A stretch of DNA of 52,498 nt from IMG/VR virus record IMGVR_UViG_3300032156_000014, positions 1 to 52,498 of that record; one strand, 5' to 3'. Positions 207-49,043 of this stretch are shown here, piece after piece. This stretch comes from a virus. Its lineage: Duplodnaviria > Caudoviricetes. Every line of letters starts with the position of its first letter. Within the stretch, counting starts at the first letter, position 1. The position numbers and the translations under genes were made by a program. The notes under the pieces were generated by a model, which saw only the letters and a list, made by a program, of their open reading frames with translations, was not told where the DNA came from and did no database searches.

Positions 207-245
207 TGGATTATTCTTTATCATATCTCCATAGAAATCCGTATG
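1..245. repeat. Terminal direct repeat / circular overlap, copy 1
   Basis: Identical to 52255-52498 except that G127 is missing in the end copy (between 52380 and 52381). Confidence 0.97.
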
Positions 246-825
246 CAGATTTTATGTCGCCCCGCGTTACCTTCCCAATGTTTCCGTGAGGGTATCCCAA
301 TTCTCTTTCAATATCAGAAAGCGATCCCCATTCTTGAATAAAATTGCCGTTTTTATCGTATTGATAAACTTTCTTAGCATACGGGCTCAATTCTCCTCGT
401 TTTGCTATCCTTTTTTGACTTTCGGACATTTTCTTCTTTGATGTGAGAGTATATCTGAACCCTTTTCTTAATTCAGATTTCCTTTGCGGAAGAGTTCCGT
501 AATTCACATTATACTTTGCCGTACACCACTCAAGATTATCAGCGGAATTGTTTAATTTATCCTCGTCTTTGTGGTTTACTTGTTTTAAGTTGTGTGGATT
601 AGGAATAAATGACAATGCGACTATTCTGTTTATTCGCCAGTCCTTGCGAGTATTCTTAGAATATAAAAGCACATGCTTATATCCCTGTTTTGAGACTGAT
701 CCTACTAAAATGCCTCCAAGCGTACCATTTCTTGGCAATGATTTAATAACGCCAAAATTGCTAACTTGATATAGCCCTTTATATCCAGGCACGTCTTTCC
801 AAATTTCTATTTCTGACTCTATCAT
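211..825 (-). CDS. NUMOD4-HNH-NUMOD1 homing endonuclease
   Basis: EIWKDVPGYKGLYQVSNFG (NUMOD4), VNHKDEDKLNNSADNLEW (HNH), VYQYDKNGNFIQEWGS...AYGFLW (NUMOD1). Confidence 0.92.
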   Translation of the reverse strand: MIESEIEIWKDVPGYKGLYQVSNFGVIKSLPRNGTLGGILVGSVSKQGYKHVLLYSKNTRKDWRINRIVALSFIPNPHNLKQVNHKDEDKLNNSADNLEWCTAKYNVNYGTLPQRKSELRKGFRYTLTSKKKMSESQKRIAKRGELSPYAKKVYQYDKNGNFIQEWGSLSDIERELGYPHGNIGKVTRGDIKSAYGFLWRYDKE

Positions 826-4265: not shown

Positions 4266-4829
4266 CTATTTTAAAAAATCCATTGTTCTGCCATTGCCTG
4301 AGCTATGCCTGAATATGTCCGGCTTCTTTCTTTCCAGCGATCCGGCCGGGGGGGGGCATTTCCAGACCCTTCCCTCTCTGCCGTCAACTATGTTTGTCGG
4401 TTTTAATAGCGGAAGATTTGTAAGCCACAAACAGGTCGCCTTTGTTTCTCCATGTCCGAACATCCAGGGCTGAATAATCTGATCCGGCTTCCGGTAAAAT
4501 CCTGACATGACTCCGATAGGATTCTCTATTGATTTTTTAGGGATATCCGATAGTGCCAGTTTTAAGAAAAATTCGGCTGCTTTTAATCTTAACCAATATC
4601 TTTCAGGATTAATTTTATAATGTTTGTTTGCACTGACAGTTAGATAAGGACAGGGCGGAAAAGCGATTAATCCCTCCCATCCATCTTCTAAGTGTCTCAA
4701 AATGTCGTCCTGAATATGATTGCCCGGAATCTCAGAAGAGAGTAAATCACAGCTCCACGCATCAACCCCATTTGTCCGGAAGGCTTCACGAACAATGCCC
4801 GAAAACTCGCAACCAATTAAAATGCTCAT
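4266..4829 (-). CDS. Small C5-cytosine DNA methyltransferase-like protein, frameshifted near the 3' end at a C9 tract
   Basis: ILIGCEFSG (motif I-like), AFPPC (catalytic), IENP; conserved tail PDRWKERSRTYSGIAQAMAEQW lies in another frame ending at 4271. Confidence 0.8.
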   Translation of the reverse strand: MSILIGCEFSGIVREAFRTNGVDAWSCDLLSSEIPGNHIQDDILRHLEDGWEGLIAFPPCPYLTVSANKHYKINPERYWLRLKAAEFFLKLALSDIPKKSIENPIGVMSGFYRKPDQIIQPWMFGHGETKATCLWLTNLPLLKPTNIVDGREGRVWKCPPPAGSLERKKPDIFRHSSGNGRTMDFLK

Positions 4830-4955: not shown

Positions 4956-5456
4956 CTATCTGGTTTTATTTTCATCGATTTCATCTAATTGATTAATTAA
5001 ATTAATTTGTTCTTTTGCATATTCATCTCTAATCTTAATTGCCAATTCTAAATTCCTAAATGTTCCAAGGCATTTTTCTGTATTTTTTCCTCTGACCTGC
5101 CAGCCATTGCCTCGTTTTCTTATTCCAGTCATTGGAAATATTCTGCGATTTTTGGAGTTTATTTGTTGTGTTACCCACCGACAGTTATCGGGGCAATAAT
5201 CTTTATCGTTATCTATTCTATCGATGGTTAAATTATCAGAATATCCGTGAGATATCGCCCAATCTTTAAATACTGAAAAATCACGCCATTGCCCAAAAAG
5301 ACAAATACCCCTTCCTCCATAATCAGAATACCTTGTATTTGATTTATTATCAATACGGCTCTTTATATTTGTCCAGATTTTATAAATTCTTGTATAACTC
5401 ATATCATGAGTCACACAGATCCTTTCTCCAATCTGAAATCCTTTTTTGCCTTTCAT
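4956..5456 (-). CDS. HNH homing endonuclease with AP2-like C-terminus
   Basis: YSDYGGRGI, LTIDRIDNDKDYCPDNCRW, LGTF. Confidence 0.88.
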   Translation of the reverse strand: MKGKKGFQIGERICVTHDMSYTRIYKIWTNIKSRIDNKSNTRYSDYGGRGICLFGQWRDFSVFKDWAISHGYSDNLTIDRIDNDKDYCPDNCRWVTQQINSKNRRIFPMTGIRKRGNGWQVRGKNTEKCLGTFRNLELAIKIRDEYAKEQINLINQLDEIDENKTR

Positions 5457-30767: not shown

Positions 30768-31733
30768 TTAATTTTTTAAGTTTGACAATAAAAATTTGTA
30801 ATCGATCTGAGTGGGCTTATCCGGTTCAGATATAATATGAGTGCCCTGCACGGGCGGGTCATCTTGTTTTTTTCGTGATACTGGCTTGTGACATTTCGGA
30901 CAGTCGACATATCCCATACCAGCTTCAGATACAGAGTTATAGTCGAATTCATGTCCGCAAGACGGGCAAACAACCATATCTTTGCTTATCCCGTTATCAA
31001 GTGTCGGAGTGGCAGTATTGCTTCCAAGCGGTACTGCAGATCCTTCAACCAGCTTCGCTTCGAGAACATACCAGAAATAACCTCTCTCGTCAGCAACTTC
31101 CGGGTTTGCTATCTGAGGATAATATTTCTTCCAGGCTTCATATTCATTCGGGTACTCTTCATCATTGATGGCAAAATCCATCTTGACATAGTACATCCCA
31201 ACGGAATGATTTCTTACCCAGCTGTTTGCATACTGGTTGAACATATACTCATTACGCTTCTTAAGAATTTCCGATTCAAAAAGAAGTGCTTCAGTGGTTC
31301 CCTGGTAAGAATAACCAAGCTCGGACCATTTGAAGTTCTTAACATAGGCTTTCAGCTGGTCGCCGTCGGCAATGATTTTTTCAAATTCCATGTCGTGCTC
31401 CTGCAGGTGCATGATCATCTTATTGTTCTGAAGGCTTCTGTTCCAGAGGCCTGGCAAATGCAGGTCATTATGATTGTCAAGGAAATTTGTCGTGTTGATC
31501 ACACAGACAACTTTAAGCGAATCCATGTTCGGCAGGTCGGCAATAGTACTTCCTTCTGCCTTCATTGCTTTTGCTTTCTCCGGGTCCAGAACAAGGGTCG
31601 GCTTAATAATAACCGGACAGTCAGCATCCTTCTTAACAGCTTTTTTCTGAGCTATTAACTTATCCCTGTTCTCAACCAGAAATTTGAACAGATCTTTTTT
31701 GGTCGCAAATTCCATGTTACCATAATGTTCCAT
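30768..31733 (-). CDS. Prohead protease with C-terminal zinc ribbon
   Basis: HLQEH, HSVG, EGSAVPLGSN.ATP; CPSC...CPKC. Confidence 0.85.
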   Translation of the reverse strand: MEHYGNMEFATKKDLFKFLVENRDKLIAQKKAVKKDADCPVIIKPTLVLDPEKAKAMKAEGSTIADLPNMDSLKVVCVINTTNFLDNHNDLHLPGLWNRSLQNNKMIMHLQEHDMEFEKIIADGDQLKAYVKNFKWSELGYSYQGTTEALLFESEILKKRNEYMFNQYANSWVRNHSVGMYYVKMDFAINDEEYPNEYEAWKKYYPQIANPEVADERGYFWYVLEAKLVEGSAVPLGSNTATPTLDNGISKDMVVCPSCGHEFDYNSVSEAGMGYVDCPKCHKPVSRKKQDDPPVQGTHIISEPDKPTQIDYKFLLSNLKN

Positions 31734-34369: not shown

Positions 34370-34849
34370 TCATGCGGTTTTGAAATTTAAATTTGCAAAC
34401 TGACCAAAAATCTCTTTTGCTTTACTATCATAAGCGCGTGCGGCGGCCTCTTCTGTTTTGAAATAACCAAGTCGAATGTGTTTGCCATTAATTTGTATTC
34501 CGGCTTTTATATATTCATATCTCTTGCCTCCATTAATAAATGATGCATGGCGCACTCCTTTATACTTGCGATTATCTCTTATTCTGCAATTCATTTGATT
34601 TTCGCTATTAGTGCACAAACGAAGATTACATTTTTGATTATTGAGGCCATTATGATCAACAAATTTATTGGCTGGGGCGTTTAATATTAACCTATGCATT
34701 TTTATAATTTTATTTTTATTAGGTGCCCTTCTTCCTGCATAATAAAATCTTTCAACCCCTATTACAAACCACTTCCATTGATTTAAATAATCATAATCTT
34801 CATCATCAACTAATGCAATCTGTCCTTTTGTTAATTTTATCTCTTTCAT
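34370..34849 (-). CDS. HNH-AP2 homing endonuclease (HNH motif appears shortened)
   Basis: MKEIKLTKGQIALVDDED, MHRLIL, VDHNGLNNQKCNLR, LGYFKTEEAAARAYD. Confidence 0.9.
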   Translation of the reverse strand: MKEIKLTKGQIALVDDEDYDYLNQWKWFVIGVERFYYAGRRAPNKNKIIKMHRLILNAPANKFVDHNGLNNQKCNLRLCTNSENQMNCRIRDNRKYKGVRHASFINGGKRYEYIKAGIQINGKHIRLGYFKTEEAAARAYDSKAKEIFGQFANLNFKTA

Positions 34850-44525: not shown

Positions 44526-46202
44526 TTATCCTGCTTTATGTATTAAAACATCGGGTAATAATTGTTTGATAACAGGCTCTAAAAGAGCCTTCGCCATACC
44601 GACCGGCACAGAATTGCCGACCATTTTGATTATCGCTTTTCGTGAAAGTTTTAATCCGGGCCTGCGAAAATACCCATCCGGAAATCCCATTATCGCAGAC
44701 AGCTCCCAATCATATAAAAACCTCATCTTAATGTCAAAGTCAACAATATCACCAAGCAAAGCCGTTACAAGGGCTTTTTTGTTTTCTGCGGTAAGTATTG
44801 ACCCTAACGGCTTTTCAAGACTCTGATTCTGTGATCCCGGATTACCACCTGAATTGAAGTAAGTTGTTATGAATTGGAATTTATCCTTTGTCGTCATAGA
44901 CCCAAGTGGATTATCAATGCTTTGATTGTTTATCTCAGGGTGTCCGGAGCTGTTATATACAGAACTTATAAATTGAGCCCTTGCTGTTATAAGAGAGTCG
45001 CCTCCAAAAGTGGTTATTGTAGGAGCCGGTTTTTCAAGAGGCTGGTTTGCATAATCATTCGTCAGGGGGCGAGTATAGAATTGCATCTTCGCCGTGACTA
45101 TGGCAGAGCCATCCCGGCACGTGATTGTCGGAGCGGGCTGATCAATACCCTGACAATGATTCTGTTTCCTGCCTCCTTCTTTTGTATTACTGAAATACTT
45201 TGATATAAACTTATTCTCAATAGTTATCAGTTGCTTTGTCTGTCTTGTCAGTTGTGTCTTTAATGGTTCGTCCGGCAGGTTATAACTATCCATGTGGCAA
45301 TGGTCCTGGATATATTGCATCTTTTCAACTTTTATAAGACATTGCCGGTCTTTTGTGGTGATCGTATTTAACGGTTTGTTTATTGACTGGCAGTTGTCTC
45401 CATTGCCATAGTATGACATGATATAATACACCTCCGGGGCAAACTTCCTGATCCCTCCGGCAATTCTTTTCAGGGTGTTCTCTGAAAGCGGGTGCCGTCT
45501 CTGTTTGGCTACATTTTCATTGAGGGCCCTGCCAAATATAGAATTACCCTCGTCACTTAAGTCAATATAATCCTTACAGGGCTTCCATTTCAGGAGTCCG
45601 AACATATTCTCTTTCTCTGCATGGGTGGGCTGTGGCCATATTATCGGACATGCCTCTTTTGAGAATATCCCAAAATATCGTATTCGCCGGGTCGGACAGC
45701 CATAATCAGCTGCATTCAAAAACCGTCGTCCGTAATTAGCATAACCGAGATCCTTGATCGCCTTTACCCATCTCAGGTATTCAAGGCCCTCTTTGCCCTT
45801 GACTCTCTTGCCGTTCTTAAGCTCTCCCCAGCGGATGAACTCCGTTACATTCTCGATATAGAGATAATCAGGTTGACAATGTACTAGGTAGCGCAGAAGC
45901 TCCCAGCCAAGTGTGAATGACCCCTCGTCTTTGTCCTTACCGCCCTTTGCCTTGCTGTGCTGGGTACATTCCAGCGAAGCCCAGAGAACATCAACCGGAT
46001 CAAGCTCTTTAACGTCCTGAGTCCTGATGTCTGCCTGGTAGTGTTTTGTCTCCGGGTGATTCGCTGCGTGTGTCTTGATCGCAATAGGATCGTGATTAAG
46101 GGCCCACGAGACATGCAGTCCGGGAACCATAAAAGCACCCGTCGAAGTCCCTCCTCCTCCTGCGAACAGATCTGCAAATTTTATATTATCTAAGAAGTCC
46201 AT
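44526..46202 (-). CDS. C5-cytosine DNA methyltransferase with repeated variable region
   Basis: DLFAGGGG, SLEC, IENV, AADYG.P..R.R, MRFL...EL...MGFP, GNSVP. Confidence 0.93.
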   Translation of the reverse strand: MDFLDNIKFADLFAGGGGTSTGAFMVPGLHVSWALNHDPIAIKTHAANHPETKHYQADIRTQDVKELDPVDVLWASLECTQHSKAKGGKDKDEGSFTLGWELLRYLVHCQPDYLYIENVTEFIRWGELKNGKRVKGKEGLEYLRWVKAIKDLGYANYGRRFLNAADYGCPTRRIRYFGIFSKEACPIIWPQPTHAEKENMFGLLKWKPCKDYIDLSDEGNSIFGRALNENVAKQRRHPLSENTLKRIAGGIRKFAPEVYYIMSYYGNGDNCQSINKPLNTITTKDRQCLIKVEKMQYIQDHCHMDSYNLPDEPLKTQLTRQTKQLITIENKFISKYFSNTKEGGRKQNHCQGIDQPAPTITCRDGSAIVTAKMQFYTRPLTNDYANQPLEKPAPTITTFGGDSLITARAQFISSVYNSSGHPEINNQSIDNPLGSMTTKDKFQFITTYFNSGGNPGSQNQSLEKPLGSILTAENKKALVTALLGDIVDFDIKMRFLYDWELSAIMGFPDGYFRRPGLKLSRKAIIKMVGNSVPVGMAKALLEPVIKQLLPDVLIHKAG

Positions 46203-46252
46203 ATATTTTATCTTAATAGTCTTTCAAGGTTGGTTTTTTGTTTTACCACCGT

Positions 46253-47767
46253 TTAAACAAACATTCCAAGTTCTTTACGGATTCGTCTTTCTGTAATTTT
46301 TATATATTCCGGATTCAATTCAAATCCTATATAATTTCTTTCTAATTTTCTGGCAACAATGGCAGTGGTTCCGGCCCCCATAAAAGTATCCAAAACAATA
46401 CCGCCTTCAGGACATCCTGCTTTAATCATATCAACTATTAACTTCTCAGGGAACGTGGCAAAATGAGCTTCTGAATAAGGCATAGTATTTACTGTCCATA
46501 CGCTTCGTTTGTTTCTTATAGGATAATTTTCATCAGTTTTCCCCTCTGTCCTTTTAATATGCATTGTATTTGGTTGCTGTCCATCCGATTGAAGATTTTT
46601 ATATTTCCATCTTTCATGACCCCTTGATAGCATTGTCTGTTGGTTAAATCCCTTATACTTTACACCTCCCTTAAACATTGTATCTTTTCTCCCATCATAT
46701 CCTGTTGCTATTTCCTGTATTGCTTCCGCATCAAAATAATATTTACCGGATTTACTCAATAAGAAAATATACTCATGCGCCTTAGTACATCTATCGGTAA
46801 CACTTTCCGGCATGGGATTAGGTTTGTGCCAGATAATATCCTGTCTTAGATACCATCCGTCAGCACGTAAAGCAAAGGCAACCATCCAGGGTATTCCGAT
46901 TAAGTCTTTGGGCTTTAACATGGCACGATTATTGATGGTACATTGTGGTTGAATATCTAACTTAAAGTATGACAAGATTTCGTTATAATACTCAGAAACC
47001 ATATCAATGTATTGATTGTGGTAATCCTGTTGAACGAAGGGTAATGCGATGTCCTGATTGTGCCAATATTGCATTAACTCATCGAAAGACTTATGAAAGG
47101 ACTGAGGAACATTGTAAGTTAATGAGCGACCGCACAAAAAACAAGAAGAAGAATTACCCCTCTGCAAGCACAAGGCCAGAAGTTGCTGATAAAATTCGGA
47201 AGGCATGGACTTGTAAAATGAAAGAAGATGCTCGGTTGAGAGGTATTGAGAATGCAAAAAATCCGAAATGGAGATTAGAATGTGGTTCACCTGATGAGAA
47301 AAATCCAATGTGGGAAAACGGTCGATCAAAAATTCCATATTCTCGTGGTTGGGCGAGAAAAGTGAAGCAATTAGCATGGGAGAAAGCTGGTCATGTGTGT
47401 GAGATTTGTGGCGGGAAGCCTGTTGACACACACCACAAAGATTTTCAAAAGAATAATCATGATTTAGATAATTTACAGGTTCTTTGTCGGAAGTGCCACA
47501 AGGCTTTGCACGTTGTACATTTAAAGATGGCATAGCAGATTCTTCCCTTTTTTTATTTCCAACAAAACCAGACCATTTACTTCCTTCGGGATTACCACCT
47601 TTCCCGCTACCAAAATAAGAATCTCCGAGATTTAAAAACAGCGTCCCGTCTTTTTTCAGGATGCGTTTAACTTCAGAAAATACTTTAACAAGTTTTGAAA
47701 CGTATAACTCCGGCGTTTCTTCTAATCCTATTTGTCCGGCACAACCATAGTCTCTGAGGCCGTTCAG
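46253..47767 (-). CDS. Beta-class N4C/N6A DNA methyltransferase, C-terminal part, with an in-frame insertion of about 200 codons
   Basis: GLRDYG..GQIGLE, LNLGDSY, KPKDLIGIPW, DIIWHKPNPMPES, HFATFP, VLDTFMGAGTT, GFELNPEY. Confidence 0.9.
   Translation of the reverse strand: MNGLRDYGCAGQIGLEETPELYVSKLVKVFSEVKRILKKDGTLFLNLGDSYFGSGKGGNPEGSKWSGFVGNKKREESAMPSLNVQRAKPCGTSDKEPVNYLNHDYSFENLCGVCQQASRHKSHTHDQLSPMLIASLFSPNHENMEFLIDRFPTLDFSHQVNHILISISDFLHSQYLSTEHLLSFYKSMPSEFYQQLLALCLQRGNSSSCFLCGRSLTYNVPQSFHKSFDELMQYWHNQDIALPFVQQDYHNQYIDMVSEYYNEILSYFKLDIQPQCTINNRAMLKPKDLIGIPWMVAFALRADGWYLRQDIIWHKPNPMPESVTDRCTKAHEYIFLLSKSGKYYFDAEAIQEIATGYDGRKDTMFKGGVKYKGFNQQTMLSRGHERWKYKNLQSDGQQPNTMHIKRTEGKTDENYPIRNKRSVWTVNTMPYSEAHFATFPEKLIVDMIKAGCPEGGIVLDTFMGAGTTAIVARKLERNYIGFELNPEYIKITERRIRKELGMFV
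46969..47535 (+). CDS. HNH homing endonuclease nested antisense inside the methyltransferase
   Basis: CIDC..CPDC, NPMWENG, CEICG..THHKD..KNNHDLDNLQVLCRKCH. Confidence 0.9.
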   Translation: MTRFRYNTQKPYQCIDCGNPVERRVMRCPDCANIALTHRKTYERTEEHCKLMSDRTKNKKKNYPSASTRPEVADKIRKAWTCKMKEDARLRGIENAKNPKWRLECGSPDEKNPMWENGRSKIPYSRGWARKVKQLAWEKAGHVCEICGGKPVDTHHKDFQKNNHDLDNLQVLCRKCHKALHVVHLKMA

Positions 47768-47895
47768 TAATACGGAGGTGACGTCACGACACAATCAATT
47801 ATGTCGGACGGCATCTGCCTTAATAAACTTAAGGCATCGCCACAATGAATTTTATTAATCCATCGTGCCATCTCCGTATTTAAAATGTTTTGCAT
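47764..47895 (-). CDS. Second methyltransferase N-terminus, 43 aa, ending SPPYY-stop
   Basis: MQNILNTEMARWINKIHCGDALSLLRQMPSDIIDCVVTSPPYY*; not in the ORF track. Confidence 0.85.
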   Translation of the reverse strand: MQNILNTEMARWINKIHCGDALSLLRQMPSDIIDCVVTSPPYY

Positions 47896-47919
47896 AATTA
47901 AATTAAGTTTGTATATTTA
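47889..47919 (+). promoter_or_regulatory. Putative promoter for the antisense LAGLIDADG gene
   Basis: TTTG (47889), 19-nt spacer, TATATTTA (47912), one mismatch to TAnnTTTG. Confidence 0.55.
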
Positions 47920-48553
47920 CCCCCGTAATTAAGGATATATTATTATGAAAAAAGAACTCATTGCTTATCTTGCTGGAATTATGGATGCTGATGGTTACTT
48001 TACTATCAAAAGGCAAACCTATGGTGTCAGGATTATTAAAGACGCCAAAAATCCTACTTATTATGAAAGAGTGGGCATTAAGCAAATATCTCCAATCGCA
48101 ATTGATATTATTAAAACTAATTTTGGTGGATATAGAAATATCCAAAAACCCAATACAAAAAATGGCAAACCACTCTTTGGAGTTGAACTTAGGAATAAGA
48201 TAGCGCATGAGTTTGTTAAGACCATTGCTCCATATATTCAAATTAAAAAAAGACAAGTTGAAATACTCTTGGATCTTAGAAAAGAACTTAATAAACCCAG
48301 AGAAATGAAACATATCGTCAAGCAGAAAAATCCTCATGGTTATATAAGCGATTTTATTAAATATTCTTTGAGTGATAGTCAGATAGATAAAAGAGAGAGT
48401 ATGTTGGCAGAAATTAAATCGCTCAATGATTCCAGAAACGATCTGTTTCATCAACCCAAGCCGTGGTGAAGTAACGCAACAATTAACTGACTCATCAGGT
48501 AGCCTGGTTAATCCCATTAAACAATCTTCATTATATATTACATTCAATTCCAT
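47903..48553 (-). pseudogene. First methyltransferase N-terminus (MELNVIYNEDCL...CCVTSP) fused to a stop-free antisense read-through of the LAGLIDADG gene
   Basis: First 30 codons are MTase-like; the rest is codon-aligned antisense of 47945-48469. Confidence 0.85.
47945..48469 (+). CDS. Single-motif LAGLIDADG homing endonuclease
   Basis: IAYLAGIMDADGYF, FGG, I.PY...KK.Q. Confidence 0.92.
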   Translation: MKKELIAYLAGIMDADGYFTIKRQTYGVRIIKDAKNPTYYERVGIKQISPIAIDIIKTNFGGYRNIQKPNTKNGKPLFGVELRNKIAHEFVKTIAPYIQIKKRQVEILLDLRKELNKPREMKHIVKQKNPHGYISDFIKYSLSDSQIDKRESMLAEIKSLNDSRNDLFHQPKPW

Positions 48554-49043
48554 TATTTCTTCTTCAGTCCTTTCACAAACCCCTCCAGCTCCGGGTTTGC
48601 CTTCATGTATTCTTTGGCAGCTGCCCTTATTGCTTCATCAAACATTTTATCTTCAGTAAACTTCTTTCTCCATTTTATCCTCATCTGGATTGCATCAACC
48701 GGCTGACCACAGGCCATGACTTTGATATCAGCCCTGAGCCGGCGGTTCTCTGCCTGTAATTTGGCATAGACGGAGCGGGAGACATGGGTTCCTGGTTTCA
48801 TTTCTGATCGTCGGATTGTTTGTCTGGTTCCTTTCCGGTTATCTTCTCAATCCGTACATTATTCAGATCCCTGACCACTCCTATCATCTTAATATTGATG
48901 GTGTCAAGATTCTTATTGTCTTTCATCTCGCTGTTTATTCGCTCGAGTAGGTCAACAGCATCTTCATACATTGTGCTTTCCTTTTTATCCATGTTATTTG
49001 AGATTAGCCAGACAGAAAATAAAGATTGAAATTCCAATGGCAA
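48553..49043 (-). other. Two small hypothetical genes (48553-48801, 48798-49043)
   Basis: Overlapping co-oriented ORFs. Confidence 0.55.

What the first reader, a model, noticed from the sequence alone, without database searches (positions are those of the whole stretch)
47764..48553. Antisense LAGLIDADG cassette that breaks the SPPY motif, keeps the host frame open and is followed by a replacement N-terminus
Seen: the original N-terminus is interrupted at TCA CCA C (S-P), and the endonuclease's TGA stop is the antisense of that Ser codon. The LAGLIDADG gene is AT-rich, yet none of its 12 Leu codons is TTA/CTA and none of its 8 Ser codons is TCA, exactly the codons that would be antisense stops. 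The host frame therefore runs through the whole element and stops at 47903, 7 nt before the ATG of a second, divergent MTase N-terminus. A plus-strand promoter-like sequence overlaps this junction. Inference: the element avoids polarity by carrying ribosomes across itself and coupling them to a fresh gene start. With the nested HNH, two unrelated nuclease families show the same open-antisense design in one gene, which suggests a general, little-described class of splicing-independent homing elements.
Basis: partly seen in the sequence, partly recalled or inferred. Interest (0 to 1): 0.82.

Follow-up and report, generated by a model that had tools for sequence, protein, structure and literature searches.

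The report
Antisense homing-nuclease cassette in phage methylase
A selfish nuclease gene sits backwards inside a phage DNA-methylase gene, has lost every codon that would stop ribosomes reading the host strand, and carries a spare gene start; related viruses repeat this cost-hiding design.

Summary
The 174-codon I-CreI-like LAGLIDADG gene (47945-48469, +) has no TTA, CTA or TCA. The methylase frame that starts at 48553 therefore reads through it and stops at 47903-47905, 7 nt before the ATG of a second methylase N-terminus. Codon resampling gives this in 10 of 4000 trials, or 0 of 4000 with low-GC usage.

The design recurs. In 17 distinct homologous cassettes where a methylase 5' fragment runs into the nuclease gene, 15 are fully open and 2 close 4-10 codons before the far end. 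Ten relatives in other contexts carry 2-21 stops. The stop and the new start lie within -8 to +9 nt in 12 of 13 cassettes. All 15 homologues of the nested HNH are also antisense and open inside methylase ORFs.

A 5-nt stop-first insert (TGAAC) separates it from the methylase body. Similar 4-10 nt inserts occur at this motif in 41 sequence contexts. They probably destroy the nuclease target. Whether ribosomes bypass them is open.

The closest published case, the ShiLan hidden HNH, lies on the same strand. I rate this a new variant of a known kind, of high interest.

The parts
48551..48555 (-). TAATG overlap: the stop of the upstream 82-aa gene (48553-48801) overlaps the ATG of the displaced methylase N-terminus
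   Evidence: Read from the sequence. This is a classical stop/start overlap. That ribosomes are handed on here is an inference.
48464..48553 (-). Displaced native 5' end of the methylase (N-terminus 1), 30 codons, MELNV...CCVTSP, broken inside the TSPPY motif
   Evidence: phrog_67 DNA methyltransferase, residues 1-30, E 1.8e-5; sequence.
48463..48469 (.). Left junction. TCACCAC on the host strand is shared between the TSPP codons and the reverse complement of the nuclease's last sense codon plus stop
   Evidence: That the junction arose by joining at this microhomology is an inference.
47945..48469 (+). I-CreI-like single-motif LAGLIDADG homing endonuclease gene, 174 codons, antisense to the host gene, with no TTA, CTA or TCA
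   Evidence: Motif LAGIMDADGYF, with D14 and D16 invariant in 22 homologues. The family profile hits I-CreI and I-MsoI chains at E 1e-7 to 3e-15. Pfam is below threshold (LAGLIDADG_3, E 0.076).
47903..48553 (-). Read-through ORF, 216 codons: N-terminus 1 fused to the antisense of the whole nuclease gene and its 5' leader; stop TAA at 47903-47905
   Evidence: The same arrangement occurs in 17 distinct cassettes.
47896..47902 (-). 7-nt spacer between the read-through stop and the ATG of N-terminus 2
   Evidence: The distance is -8 to +9 nt in 12 of 13 cassettes where an ATG start was found.
47767..47895 (-). Replacement N-terminus (N-terminus 2), 43 codons, MQNIL...VVTSPPYY, 39% identical to N-terminus 1
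   Evidence: phrog_67, E 1.3e-9. Its coding DNA must also hold the nuclease gene's promoter region (inference).
47762..47766 (-). Stop-first 5-nt insert TGAAC between TAC (Tyr) and GGC (Gly). It interrupts the SPPYY|GLRDYG coding DNA and shifts the frame
   Evidence: The same insert occurs in L022. Nineteen different 4-10 nt inserts lie at this site in 41 contexts.
46253..47761 (-). Body of the N6/N4 DNA methyltransferase, GLRDYG... to the stop, in the frame of ORF 46253-47794
   Evidence: PF01555, E 4.4e-46; phrog_67, E 1.4e-59.
46969..47535 (+). Nested HNH endonuclease gene, antisense inside the methylase body. The host frame stays open across it
   Evidence: PF01844, 21.6 bits against a 21.4 cut-off; phrog_333, E 2.9e-10; 0 antisense stops in the host frame. 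All 15 homologous loci show the same arrangement.

Best explanation
The region is a composite homing cassette lodged in the 5' end of a phage PF01555 DNA methyltransferase gene. In host (minus-strand) order it consists of:
1. the displaced native start of the gene, up to TSP;
2. an I-CreI-type LAGLIDADG endonuclease gene on the opposite strand;
3. a stop 7 nt before the ATG of a replacement N-terminus that again runs up to TSPPYY;
4. a 5-nt stop-first insert;
5. the methylase body.

Most likely mechanism:
- The nuclease cuts intact TSPPY|(W/Y)G-coding DNA of naive methylase genes.
- The displaced N-terminus and the gene body serve as homology arms for copying the cassette into the cut gene.
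- The short insert breaks the target that the replacement N-terminus would otherwise regenerate, so the carrier is immune.
- The nuclease gene lies against the direction of all phage transcription. It has been purged of TTA, CTA and TCA.
- Ribosomes that start at the native site (itself overlapping the upstream gene's stop, TAATG) can therefore cross the roughly 570 nt of antisense DNA without terminating. They are released next to the new start.
- This keeps the host message translated and lowers the cost of the element.

Shown: the anatomy, the codon purge and its significance, the recurrence in relatives, and the stop/start proximity.
Inferred: the cleavage site, homing, coupling, and protection from polarity or mRNA decay.
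For: Anatomy and statistics in the window.

Nuclease identity: the 22-sequence profile hits I-CreI and I-MsoI.

Recurrence of the open frame:
- Seventeen distinct cassettes have a methylase 5' fragment running into the nuclease 3' end: the window, L002, L005, L009, L010, L012, L013/14, L015, L018, L020, the L023 group, L041, L044, L045, L046, L048 and L127.
- In 15 of them the host frame has no stop across the whole nuclease gene. In L044 it closes 10 codons and in L048 4 codons before the far end.
- Ten relatives not entered by a methylase frame, or of unknown context, have 2-21 stops (L001, L004, L007, L008, L011, L016, L019, L021, L028, L029).
- Among genes with GC <= 0.41 the split is 7/7 open against 0/7 open, Fisher p = 0.0006.
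- L008 is an informative contrast. The same nuclease family lies antisense upstream of the same kind of methylase, but no N-terminal fragment enters it, and it has 16 stops.
- L001 and L019 are co-oriented with the methylase and have 6 and 4 stops.

Other support:
- At least two LAGLIDADG lineages (29-34% identical) occupy the slot, both open.
- Nuclease synonymous sites are saturated (pS 0.65-0.79). Only stop avoidance is conserved, not the antisense peptide.
- Stop-to-ATG distances are 7, -4, 9, 3, 2, 2, 2, 2, -8, 5, 9, -4, with one exception of 123. Several have GGAGG just upstream.
- Left junctions fall at TS, TSP, TSPP or TSPPY in the window, L044, L045, L046, L048 and L127. The insert sits right after SPPY(W). 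Both point to this motif as the target.
- L013 and L014 share the nuclease and N-terminus 2 but differ in N-terminus 1. L036 and L039 are 99% identical upstream and become mosaic right after the insert. This pattern is what recombination started at this site would leave.
- Fifteen of 15 HNH relatives show the parallel antisense-open design.
Against: - No expression or ribosome data exist; no RNA run holds the stretch.
- The host is unknown, so Rho-type polarity is an assumption.
- The cassettes are related by descent and by recombination, so the counts are not independent events.
- In high-GC members TTA, CTA and TCA are rare anyway.
- If the body after the 5-nt insert is not translated, about 1.5 kb of host message stays ribosome-free. 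Keeping 0.6 kb open would then gain little.
- L044 has a gap of about 100-120 nt between stop and start.
- A terminator-like hairpin lies on the host strand inside the nuclease gene (48179-48156; 10 pairs, only 3 G-C).
- The cleavage site is inferred, not tested.
- The heterogeneity of left junctions is not explained by a single origin.
Confidence: 0.65

Rival explanations
1. The stop-first insert after SPPY is a coding gap that ribosomes skip. Peptidyl-tRNA takes off from the codon before the stop (UAC here) and re-pairs on the last triplet of the insert (AAC). The unchanged protein SPPYY-GLRDYG is made while the DNA target of the nuclease is destroyed. This would be a miniature analogue of T4 gene 60 with mobA. 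It complements the best explanation rather than excluding it.
For: One search lists 41 sequence contexts and 19 different inserts of 4-10 nt.
- All inserts begin with a stop.
- Removing the insert restores the canonical spacing SPPY-x-x-LR-x-Y in every case.
- The last triplet of the insert matches the take-off codon at 2 or 3 of 3 positions in 22 of 22 take-off/insert pairs. The chance value is 0.16 each.
- Five contexts have in-frame inserts of 6 or 9 nt, one of them TGATGA. In two more the shifted frame is closed. A simple frameshift therefore cannot rescue these 7.
- The body ORF after the insert is at least 200 codons in 30 of 33 contexts not cut by a contig end.
- The fourth base of TGAN is C in 16 and T in 5 methylase contexts, and never A or G.
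- In the set found through the nuclease, and so not through a stop-containing pattern, 7 of 7 insert classes are stop-first.
- N-terminus 2 keeps its start and shows pN/pS of about 0.3-0.45.
- Keeping the antisense frame open and coupled makes sense only if translation goes on productively.
Against: - No protein or ribosome data exist.
- Nine of 21 TGAY cases are perfect 4-bp tandem duplications (AYTG). These create both the TGA and the matching last triplet automatically.
- Direct repeats at insert ends could reflect how the insertions arise.
- Two of the three pattern searches required a stop, which is ascertainment bias.
- The inserts are related, so the probabilities are nominal.
- Landing on a 2-of-3 match is usually inefficient (recalled from E. 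coli hopping work, not checked here).
- Recombination at the site and the existence of unbroken close relatives mean that intact bodies may simply be recent acquisitions.
Confidence: 0.3
2. The methylase is dead in carriers. The short insert is only a resistance scar from mis-repair of nuclease cuts, or an immunity mark spread by gene conversion. The cassette is purely selfish. The open antisense frame serves only transcription and translation of genes further downstream, or is a leftover.
For: - Perfect 4-bp duplications at the presumed cut site.
- Mosaic recombination that begins at the insert.
- Unbroken relatives exist as a possible continual source of intact bodies.
- Phage methylases are often dispensable (PMC11855218, section 4.1, read).
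- Three contexts have short bodies of 105-174 codons.
Against: - Stop-first holds in 7 of 7 nuclease-linked classes.
- Host nucleotides on both sides of the insert are retained cleanly in all 41 contexts, and 30 of 33 bodies are intact.
- N-terminus 2 keeps its start, its frame and its conserved motif in all cassettes although nuclease synonymous sites are saturated.
- A ribosome-free 1.5-kb body would defeat the purpose of an open 0.6-kb antisense stretch.
Confidence: 0.35
3. The methylase is made in two pieces: a roughly 40-aa peptide ending at SPPY(Y/W), and a body fragment started by re-initiation at the stop. The pieces assemble like other genes split by homing endonucleases.
For: An immediate stop would trim the peptide exactly. 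An ATG or GTG sits 4 to 2 nt before the end of 13 of 15 inserts that follow TGG (read by eye). Split genes created by free-standing endonucleases are known (recalled, not checked here).
Against: - That ATG or GTG is out of frame with the body in every case I checked.
- In most TGAY loci the body frame is open for only 6 codons upstream and holds no ATG, GTG or TTG.
- The catalytic loop would be cut right after its Tyr.
Confidence: 0.07
4. The stop-free antisense frame is a by-product of nuclease codon usage, or the antisense ORF itself encodes a functional protein.
For: The codon-aligned antisense frame is generally the most open one. One window gene has a 259-codon open antisense stretch.
Against: - Resampling gives 10/4000, or 0/4000 with low-GC usage.
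- The distribution is bimodal by context.
- The HNH uses a different antisense register and still has 0 stops in 15 of 15 loci.
- The antisense part has no family match.
- Nuclease synonymous sites are saturated, so the antisense peptide is not conserved.
Confidence: 0.03

Closest known systems
ShiLan domain: hidden out-of-frame HNH insertion in mycobacteriophage DNA methylases (Arsenault, Gosselin, Gogarten 2025, PMC11855218; earlier paper PMC9957025)
   Same: A homing endonuclease gene lies inside a phage methylase ORF. The host frame has no stop across it. No intron or intein features are present. Distribution is disjunct, and the insert is presumed to stay in the protein as a loop. This matches the nested HNH here especially well.
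   Different: The ShiLan nuclease is read from another frame of the same strand. Here both nucleases are on the opposite strand. The paper holds no occurrence of 'antisense', 'opposite strand', 'reverse complement' or 'reverse strand'. The window's HNH family has no match in GenBank phages at E <= 1e-8. The LAGLIDADG cassette is not an in-frame loop: its read-through product ends, and a duplicated N-terminus follows.
Fungal mitochondrial mobile endonuclease ORFs that carry a foreign gene terminus (Allomyces atp6; Glomus atp6, atp9, cox2, nad3; Beaudet et al. 2013, PMC3630166, passages read)
   Same: The endonuclease ORF travels with a replacement copy of the end of the invaded gene. The displaced native end remains beside it as a remnant. 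The two copies are divergent.
   Different: Those elements replace the C-terminus and are co-oriented, often in phase with the host gene. Here the N-terminus is replaced and the nuclease is antisense. The displaced fragment is still translated and is used to carry ribosomes across. The regenerated target is broken by a short insert rather than by synonymous changes.
T4 mobA plus the gene 60 50-nt bypass cassette (recalled: Bonocora et al. 2011; listing and abstract of bioRxiv 10.1101/2022.08.31.505936 seen)
   Same: A free-standing homing endonuclease lies next to its target gene. A non-coding insert, starting with a stop right after a take-off codon, interrupts a conserved coding site and would protect the carrier.
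   Different: The inserts here are 4-10 nt, not 50 nt. No stem-loop or nascent-peptide signal was sought or is evident. Bypassing is untested here.
I-CreI / I-MsoI family of homodimeric LAGLIDADG endonucleases
   Same: One LAGLIDADG motif in about 170 aa. The profile matches solved I-CreI and I-MsoI chains.
   Different: Those enzymes are encoded in group I introns and are co-oriented with the host gene. Here no intron is detected and the gene is antisense.

Membership tests
LAGLIDADG homing endonuclease (I-CreI-like, single motif) | LAGLIDADG motif with a conserved acidic residue | tested here: met
   LAGIMDADGYF at residues 9-19. M13, D14, D16 and G17 are invariant in 22 homologues.
LAGLIDADG homing endonuclease (I-CreI-like, single motif) | Sequence-profile similarity to solved family members | tested here: met
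   The profile of alignment A1 hits I-CreI, I-MsoI and I-CvuI chains, with E from 3e-15 (single-chain I-CreI derivative) to 1e-4.
LAGLIDADG homing endonuclease (I-CreI-like, single motif) | Passes the Pfam gathering score | tested here: not met
   LAGLIDADG_3 scores 13.7 bits against a 22.5 cut-off; LAGLIDADG_1 scores 11.3 against 23.1. The second lineage at the same slot (L041) passes LAGLIDADG_1 at 28.5 bits.
LAGLIDADG homing endonuclease (I-CreI-like, single motif) | Site-specific cleavage and homing | not testable with these tools
   Only indirect signs: L013 and L014 differ in their left arm, and recombination mosaics start at the site.
Group I or group II intron | Ribozyme core detectable by covariance model | tested here: not met
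   0 Rfam matches at E <= 1 on both strands of 45800-49000.
Intein | Insert translated in frame on the host strand, with splicing blocks and the nuclease as a domain of the same polypeptide | tested here: not met
   The nuclease is on the opposite strand. The host-frame peptide has no family match and ends in a stop.
ShiLan-type hidden endonuclease insertion | Host methylase frame has no stop across the inserted nuclease gene | tested here: met
   HNH; LAGLIDADG.
ShiLan-type hidden endonuclease insertion | Nuclease read from another frame of the same strand, with the insert flanked in frame by both halves of the host protein | tested here: not met
   Both nucleases are antisense. The HNH is flanked in frame by both halves. 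The LAGLIDADG read-through ends at 47903 and a duplicated N-terminus follows.
Programmed translational bypass (gene 60 type) | Stop codon directly after the take-off codon | tested here: met
   TAC TGA in the window. All 19 insert sequences begin with a stop, though two of the three searches required one.
Programmed translational bypass (gene 60 type) | Matching take-off and landing codons | tested here: inconclusive
   The window has UAC against AAC, a 2-of-3 match. Perfect UGG/UGG pairs occur with 5 of the 19 inserts, and at least 2 of 3 positions match in 22 of 22 pairs. Duplication-type origins could produce this without any function.
Programmed translational bypass (gene 60 type) | Full-length protein made across the gap | not testable with these tools
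   No protein, ribosome or RNA data.

The most novel reading that the evidence does not exclude
Phage PF01555 methylase genes carry a widespread family of miniature coding gaps: 4-10 nt, stop-first, with a last triplet that resembles the take-off codon. They sit exactly at the catalytic SPPY(W)|G site. Ribosomes hop over them, so the protein is unchanged while the DNA target of the adjacent LAGLIDADG or HNH homing endonucleases is destroyed. Together with antisense nuclease genes purged of antisense stops and coupled replacement N-termini, this would be a complete toolkit by which intron-less, intein-less homing elements make themselves phenotypically silent at the level of translation.
Probability: 0.3. 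Interest if true: 0.92.

Novelty: new variant of a known kind. Interest (0 to 1): 0.82.

Why it matters
Homing endonuclease genes are thought to persist inside genes only if an intron or an intein removes them from the product. The alternative is to sit between genes.

These data show a third route, used repeatedly by two LAGLIDADG lineages and one HNH family in environmental phages. The nuclease gene lies backwards inside the host ORF and keeps the host frame readable.
- In the HNH case the methylase apparently carries the antisense-encoded filler as a loop.
- In the LAGLIDADG case the open frame ferries ribosomes to a spare gene start that the element brings along.

This has three consequences.
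- It extends the recently described same-strand 'hidden HNH' (ShiLan) elements to the opposite strand.
- It gives a simple sequence signature for finding such elements: nuclease codon usage without antisense stops in one register.
- It warns annotators that long ORFs may hide antisense nuclease genes.

The stop-first mini-inserts at the catalytic motif make a long-standing question directly testable. That question is whether short translational hops are used in nature, and whether recoding evolves as immunity against homing endonucleases. Dozens of natural variants are available for the test.

Tried and rejected
- Group I/II intron or other known RNA: 0 Rfam matches at E <= 1.
- Single-sequence locus search with the LAGLIDADG protein found nothing. 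The alignment-based searches did.
- GenBank phages:
  - DNA similarity covers only about 200 nt of the methylase core.
  - The LAGLIDADG protein gives 5 records at 27-29% identity.
  - The HNH gives none at E <= 1e-8.
  - No cultured carrier was therefore found.
- Promoter scan: hits are not above shuffles.
- Sequencing runs:
  - No RNA holder is listed, and only contigs were available.
  - One run is probably the source of this DNA, so the 5-nt insert could not be checked against raw reads.
  - One 284-nt contig joins 46909 to 47604, as an HNH-free relative would, but only 29 nt lie on one side.
- Using pN/pS to prove selection after the break: the ratios are below 1, but recombination at the site and unbroken relatives confound the dating. 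I do not count this as proof of function.
- Association of inserts with an upstream nuclease:
  - 11 of 30 pattern-found distinct insert-bearing methylases have a LAGLIDADG or HNH ORF directly upstream.
  - 1 of 8 unbroken controls does, by eye.
  - This is suggestive only.
- Alternative genetic codes with TGA as sense do not join the frames, and TAA inserts also exist.
- No supplementary files of papers were consulted.


Full report
**What is there**

The window is a whole 52,498-nt virus record, rated 86% complete. Almost all of its genes lie on the minus strand.

Between 46253 and 48553 lies one PF01555 N6/N4 DNA methyltransferase gene in pieces. In host orientation the pieces are as follows.
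- An ATG at 48553-48551 overlaps the TAA of the upstream 82-aa gene (TAATG).
- Thirty methylase codons follow, MELNV...CCVTSP.
- The frame then continues without a stop through the reverse complement of a plus-strand gene (47945-48469, 174 codons) to TAA at 47903-47905.
- Seven nt later a second ATG (47895) opens 43 codons of a different methylase N-terminus, MQNIL...VVTSPPYY. It is 11/28 identical to the first. It ends at TGA 47764-47766.
- The rest of the enzyme (GLRDYGCAGQIGLE...) follows in another frame (ORF 46253-47794). That ORF in turn reads through the reverse complement of an HNH gene (46969-47535, +).

**The plus-strand gene**

It has a LAGIMDADGYF motif. Pfam misses it (best hit LAGLIDADG_3, E 0.076). 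A profile of it and 21 homologues matches solved I-CreI and I-MsoI chains at E 1e-7 to 3e-15. It is therefore a single-motif, I-CreI-like LAGLIDADG endonuclease. Only one copy exists in the record.

**Check of the observation**

- Twelve Leu and 8 Ser codons include no TTA, CTA or TCA. GC is 0.33.
- The codon-aligned antisense frame has 0 stops, against 11 and 23 in the other two.

The result is more than chance.
- In 52 minus-strand ORFs these three codons make up 3.7% of 13,907 codons. They account for 24% of Leu and 28% of Ser codons.
- Only one ORF, of 90 codons, has a stop-free antisense frame.
- Resampling synonymous codons gave a stop-free frame in 10/4000 trials. With the usage of the window's low-GC genes it gave 0/4000.
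- Three co-oriented HNH genes of the same phage have 13, 6 and 7 such codons.
- The HNH gene uses a different antisense register and also has 0 stops there, against 9 and 9 in the other registers. Resampling matched this in 1/4000 trials, and permuting its own codons in 1/4000.

The promoter-like sequence is not better than chance.

**Relatives of the LAGLIDADG cassette**

Alignment-based searches of viral, metagenome and genome collections found the relatives. So did a pattern search scanned with an HMM of the family. In 17 distinct cassettes a methylase 5' fragment runs on the opposite strand into the 3' end of the nuclease gene.
- In 15 of them the host frame has no stop over the whole nuclease gene. 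GC ranges from 0.29 to 0.61.
- In L044 and L048 it closes 10 and 4 codons before the far end.

Ten relatives in other settings carry 2-21 stops. L001 and L019 are co-oriented with the methylase. L008 is antisense but not entered by any fragment and has 16 stops. The rest are of unknown context.
- For genes with GC <= 0.41 the split is 7/7 against 0/7, Fisher p = 0.0006.
- These counts are not independent events.

Other features of the cassettes:
- Two LAGLIDADG lineages only 29-34% identical occupy the same slot, and both are open.
- Nuclease synonymous sites are saturated (pS 0.65-0.79). What is conserved is the absence of stops, not an antisense protein.
- The read-through stop lies -8 to +9 nt from the ATG of the second N-terminus in 12 of 13 cassettes where the script found an ATG start. 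Three of these are ATGA overlaps. L044 is the exception at about 120 nt.
- For four further cassettes no ATG start was found.

**Relatives of the HNH**

All 15 close homologues in viral contigs (13 distinct) lie antisense inside a methylase ORF at the same place, between LNLGDSY and LKPKDLxGIPW. Each has 0 stops in the host frame and 1-12 in the other antisense frames. The host ORF spans each of them. There the methylase presumably carries the antisense-encoded filler as an internal loop.

The replacement N-terminus is cut off from the body by TGAAC (47762-47766), which lies between TAC and GGC. Every related cassette but L005 and the L023 group has such a break directly after SPP, SPPY or SPPYW.

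Pattern searches found many more, most without this nuclease nearby. tabulates 41 contexts with 19 different inserts of 4-10 nt.
- All inserts begin with TGA or TAA.
- Removing the insert restores SPPY-x-x-LR-x-Y exactly in every case.
- The body ORF is at least 200 codons in 30 of 33 contexts not cut by a contig end.
- Five inserts are in frame (6 or 9 nt, one of them TGATGA). In two more the shifted frame is closed. A plain frameshift cannot rescue these seven.
- The last triplet of each insert matches the preceding codon at 2-3 of 3 positions in 22 of 22 pairs.

There are caveats.
- Two of the three searches required a stop.
- Nine of 21 TGAY cases are perfect 4-bp duplications of AYTG, which produce the stop and the match automatically.
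- The inserts are related to one another.
- In the unbiased nuclease-linked set, 7 of 7 insert classes are stop-first.

Some insert-bearing methylases have an HNH gene directly upstream instead (L031, L033, L111, L117).

**Interpretation**

The motif-IV coding DNA is the likely nuclease target.
- Left junctions fall at TS, TSP, TSPP or TSPPY.
- The inserts sit at its centre.
- A recombination mosaic starts there (L036 against L039).
- L013 and L014 share the nuclease and N-terminus 2 but not N-terminus 1.

The cassette therefore looks like a mirror image of the fungal mitochondrial endonuclease elements that bring a foreign C-terminus (PMC3630166). Here the element brings a new N-terminus, and the old one stays upstream.

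The old start still captures ribosomes, and the element lies against transcription. Selection has therefore removed antisense stops and placed the stop beside the new start. I hold it at about 0.65.

The insert most simply serves as self-immunity, as the bypass sequence does for mobA in T4 (recalled). Three readings remain open:
- the methylase is rescued by a short hop (0.3);
- it is made in two pieces (0.07);
- it is dead (0.35).

The effort spent on keeping translation flowing argues against a dead end. The duplication signature and the recombination argue for scars.

**Comparison with what is known**

The ShiLan domain is the nearest described case (PMC11855218, sections 1, 3.6 and 4 read; PMC9957025, passages read). 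It is an endonuclease hidden in a methylase ORF that stays open, but on the same strand. Neither paper mentions an antisense arrangement.
- Searches for antisense in-frame homing endonucleases found nothing relevant.
- A search for frameshifted SPPY methylases found no paper.
- A search for partial duplication with free-standing endonucleases found nothing relevant.

These searches cover open-access full text only.

**Verdict**

This is a new variant of a known kind, with a more novel possibility (natural mini-hops) left open.

Noticed in passing
window 46969-47535 (+) inside 46253-47794 (-); loci L049-L063: An HNH endonuclease family is always found antisense inside PF01555 methylase ORFs at one site (after LNLGDSY, before LKPKDLxGIPW), with the host frame open. 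This holds in 15 of 15 viral-contig relatives. The family is absent from GenBank phages at E <= 1e-8.
   Followed up: partly
L030-L048, L101-L123 and others (table): Stop-first inserts of 4-10 nt lie exactly after SPPY or SPPYW in phage methylases, mostly with no LAGLIDADG gene nearby. Several have an HNH gene directly upstream on the same strand (L031, L033, L111, L117).
   Followed up: partly
L036 vs L039; L013 vs L014: L036 and L039 are 99% identical for 300 nt upstream of the insert and become mosaic (pS 0 to 0.78 per 60 codons) right after it. L013 and L014 share the nuclease and second N-terminus but have different first N-termini. Both look like recombination started at the motif.
   Followed up: partly
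window 46909/47604 (run X1): A 284-nt contig of a related organism in the probable source metagenome joins 46909 to 47604, as an HNH-free methylase allele would. Only 29 nt lie on one side, so this is weak.
   Followed up: no
window 30768-31733 (-): This 321-codon gene has only 5 TTA/CTA/TCA codons and a 259-codon open antisense stretch (plus-strand ORF 30888-31658, 256 aa). I did not examine whether this is chance or another overlapping arrangement.
   Followed up: no
window 44526-46202 (-): The neighbouring C-5 cytosine methylase is 558 aa. Its Pfam match stretches a 324-position profile over residues 7-544, so it probably holds large insertions. No long antisense ORF lies in it.
   Followed up: no
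window 211-825, 4956-5456, 34370-34849 (-); 4266-4829 (-): Three co-oriented HNH endonuclease genes and a third methyltransferase (phrog_757) make this phage unusually rich in nucleases and methylases.
   Followed up: partly
window 48179-48156 (-): A terminator-like hairpin lies on the host strand inside the antisense nuclease gene (10 pairs, 3 G-C, then a T-rich tail). It is a weak consensus match; the region holds 3 such hits against 1.1 +/- 1.1 in shuffles.
   Followed up: no
L005; L023-L027: These cassette variants lack the break. L005 has a DPPYF methylase continuous with its second N-terminus. In L023-L027 the duplicated part is about 170 aa of a methylase of different motif order (motif I before ADHIIC), again cut just before the PPY-type motif.
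   Followed up: partly
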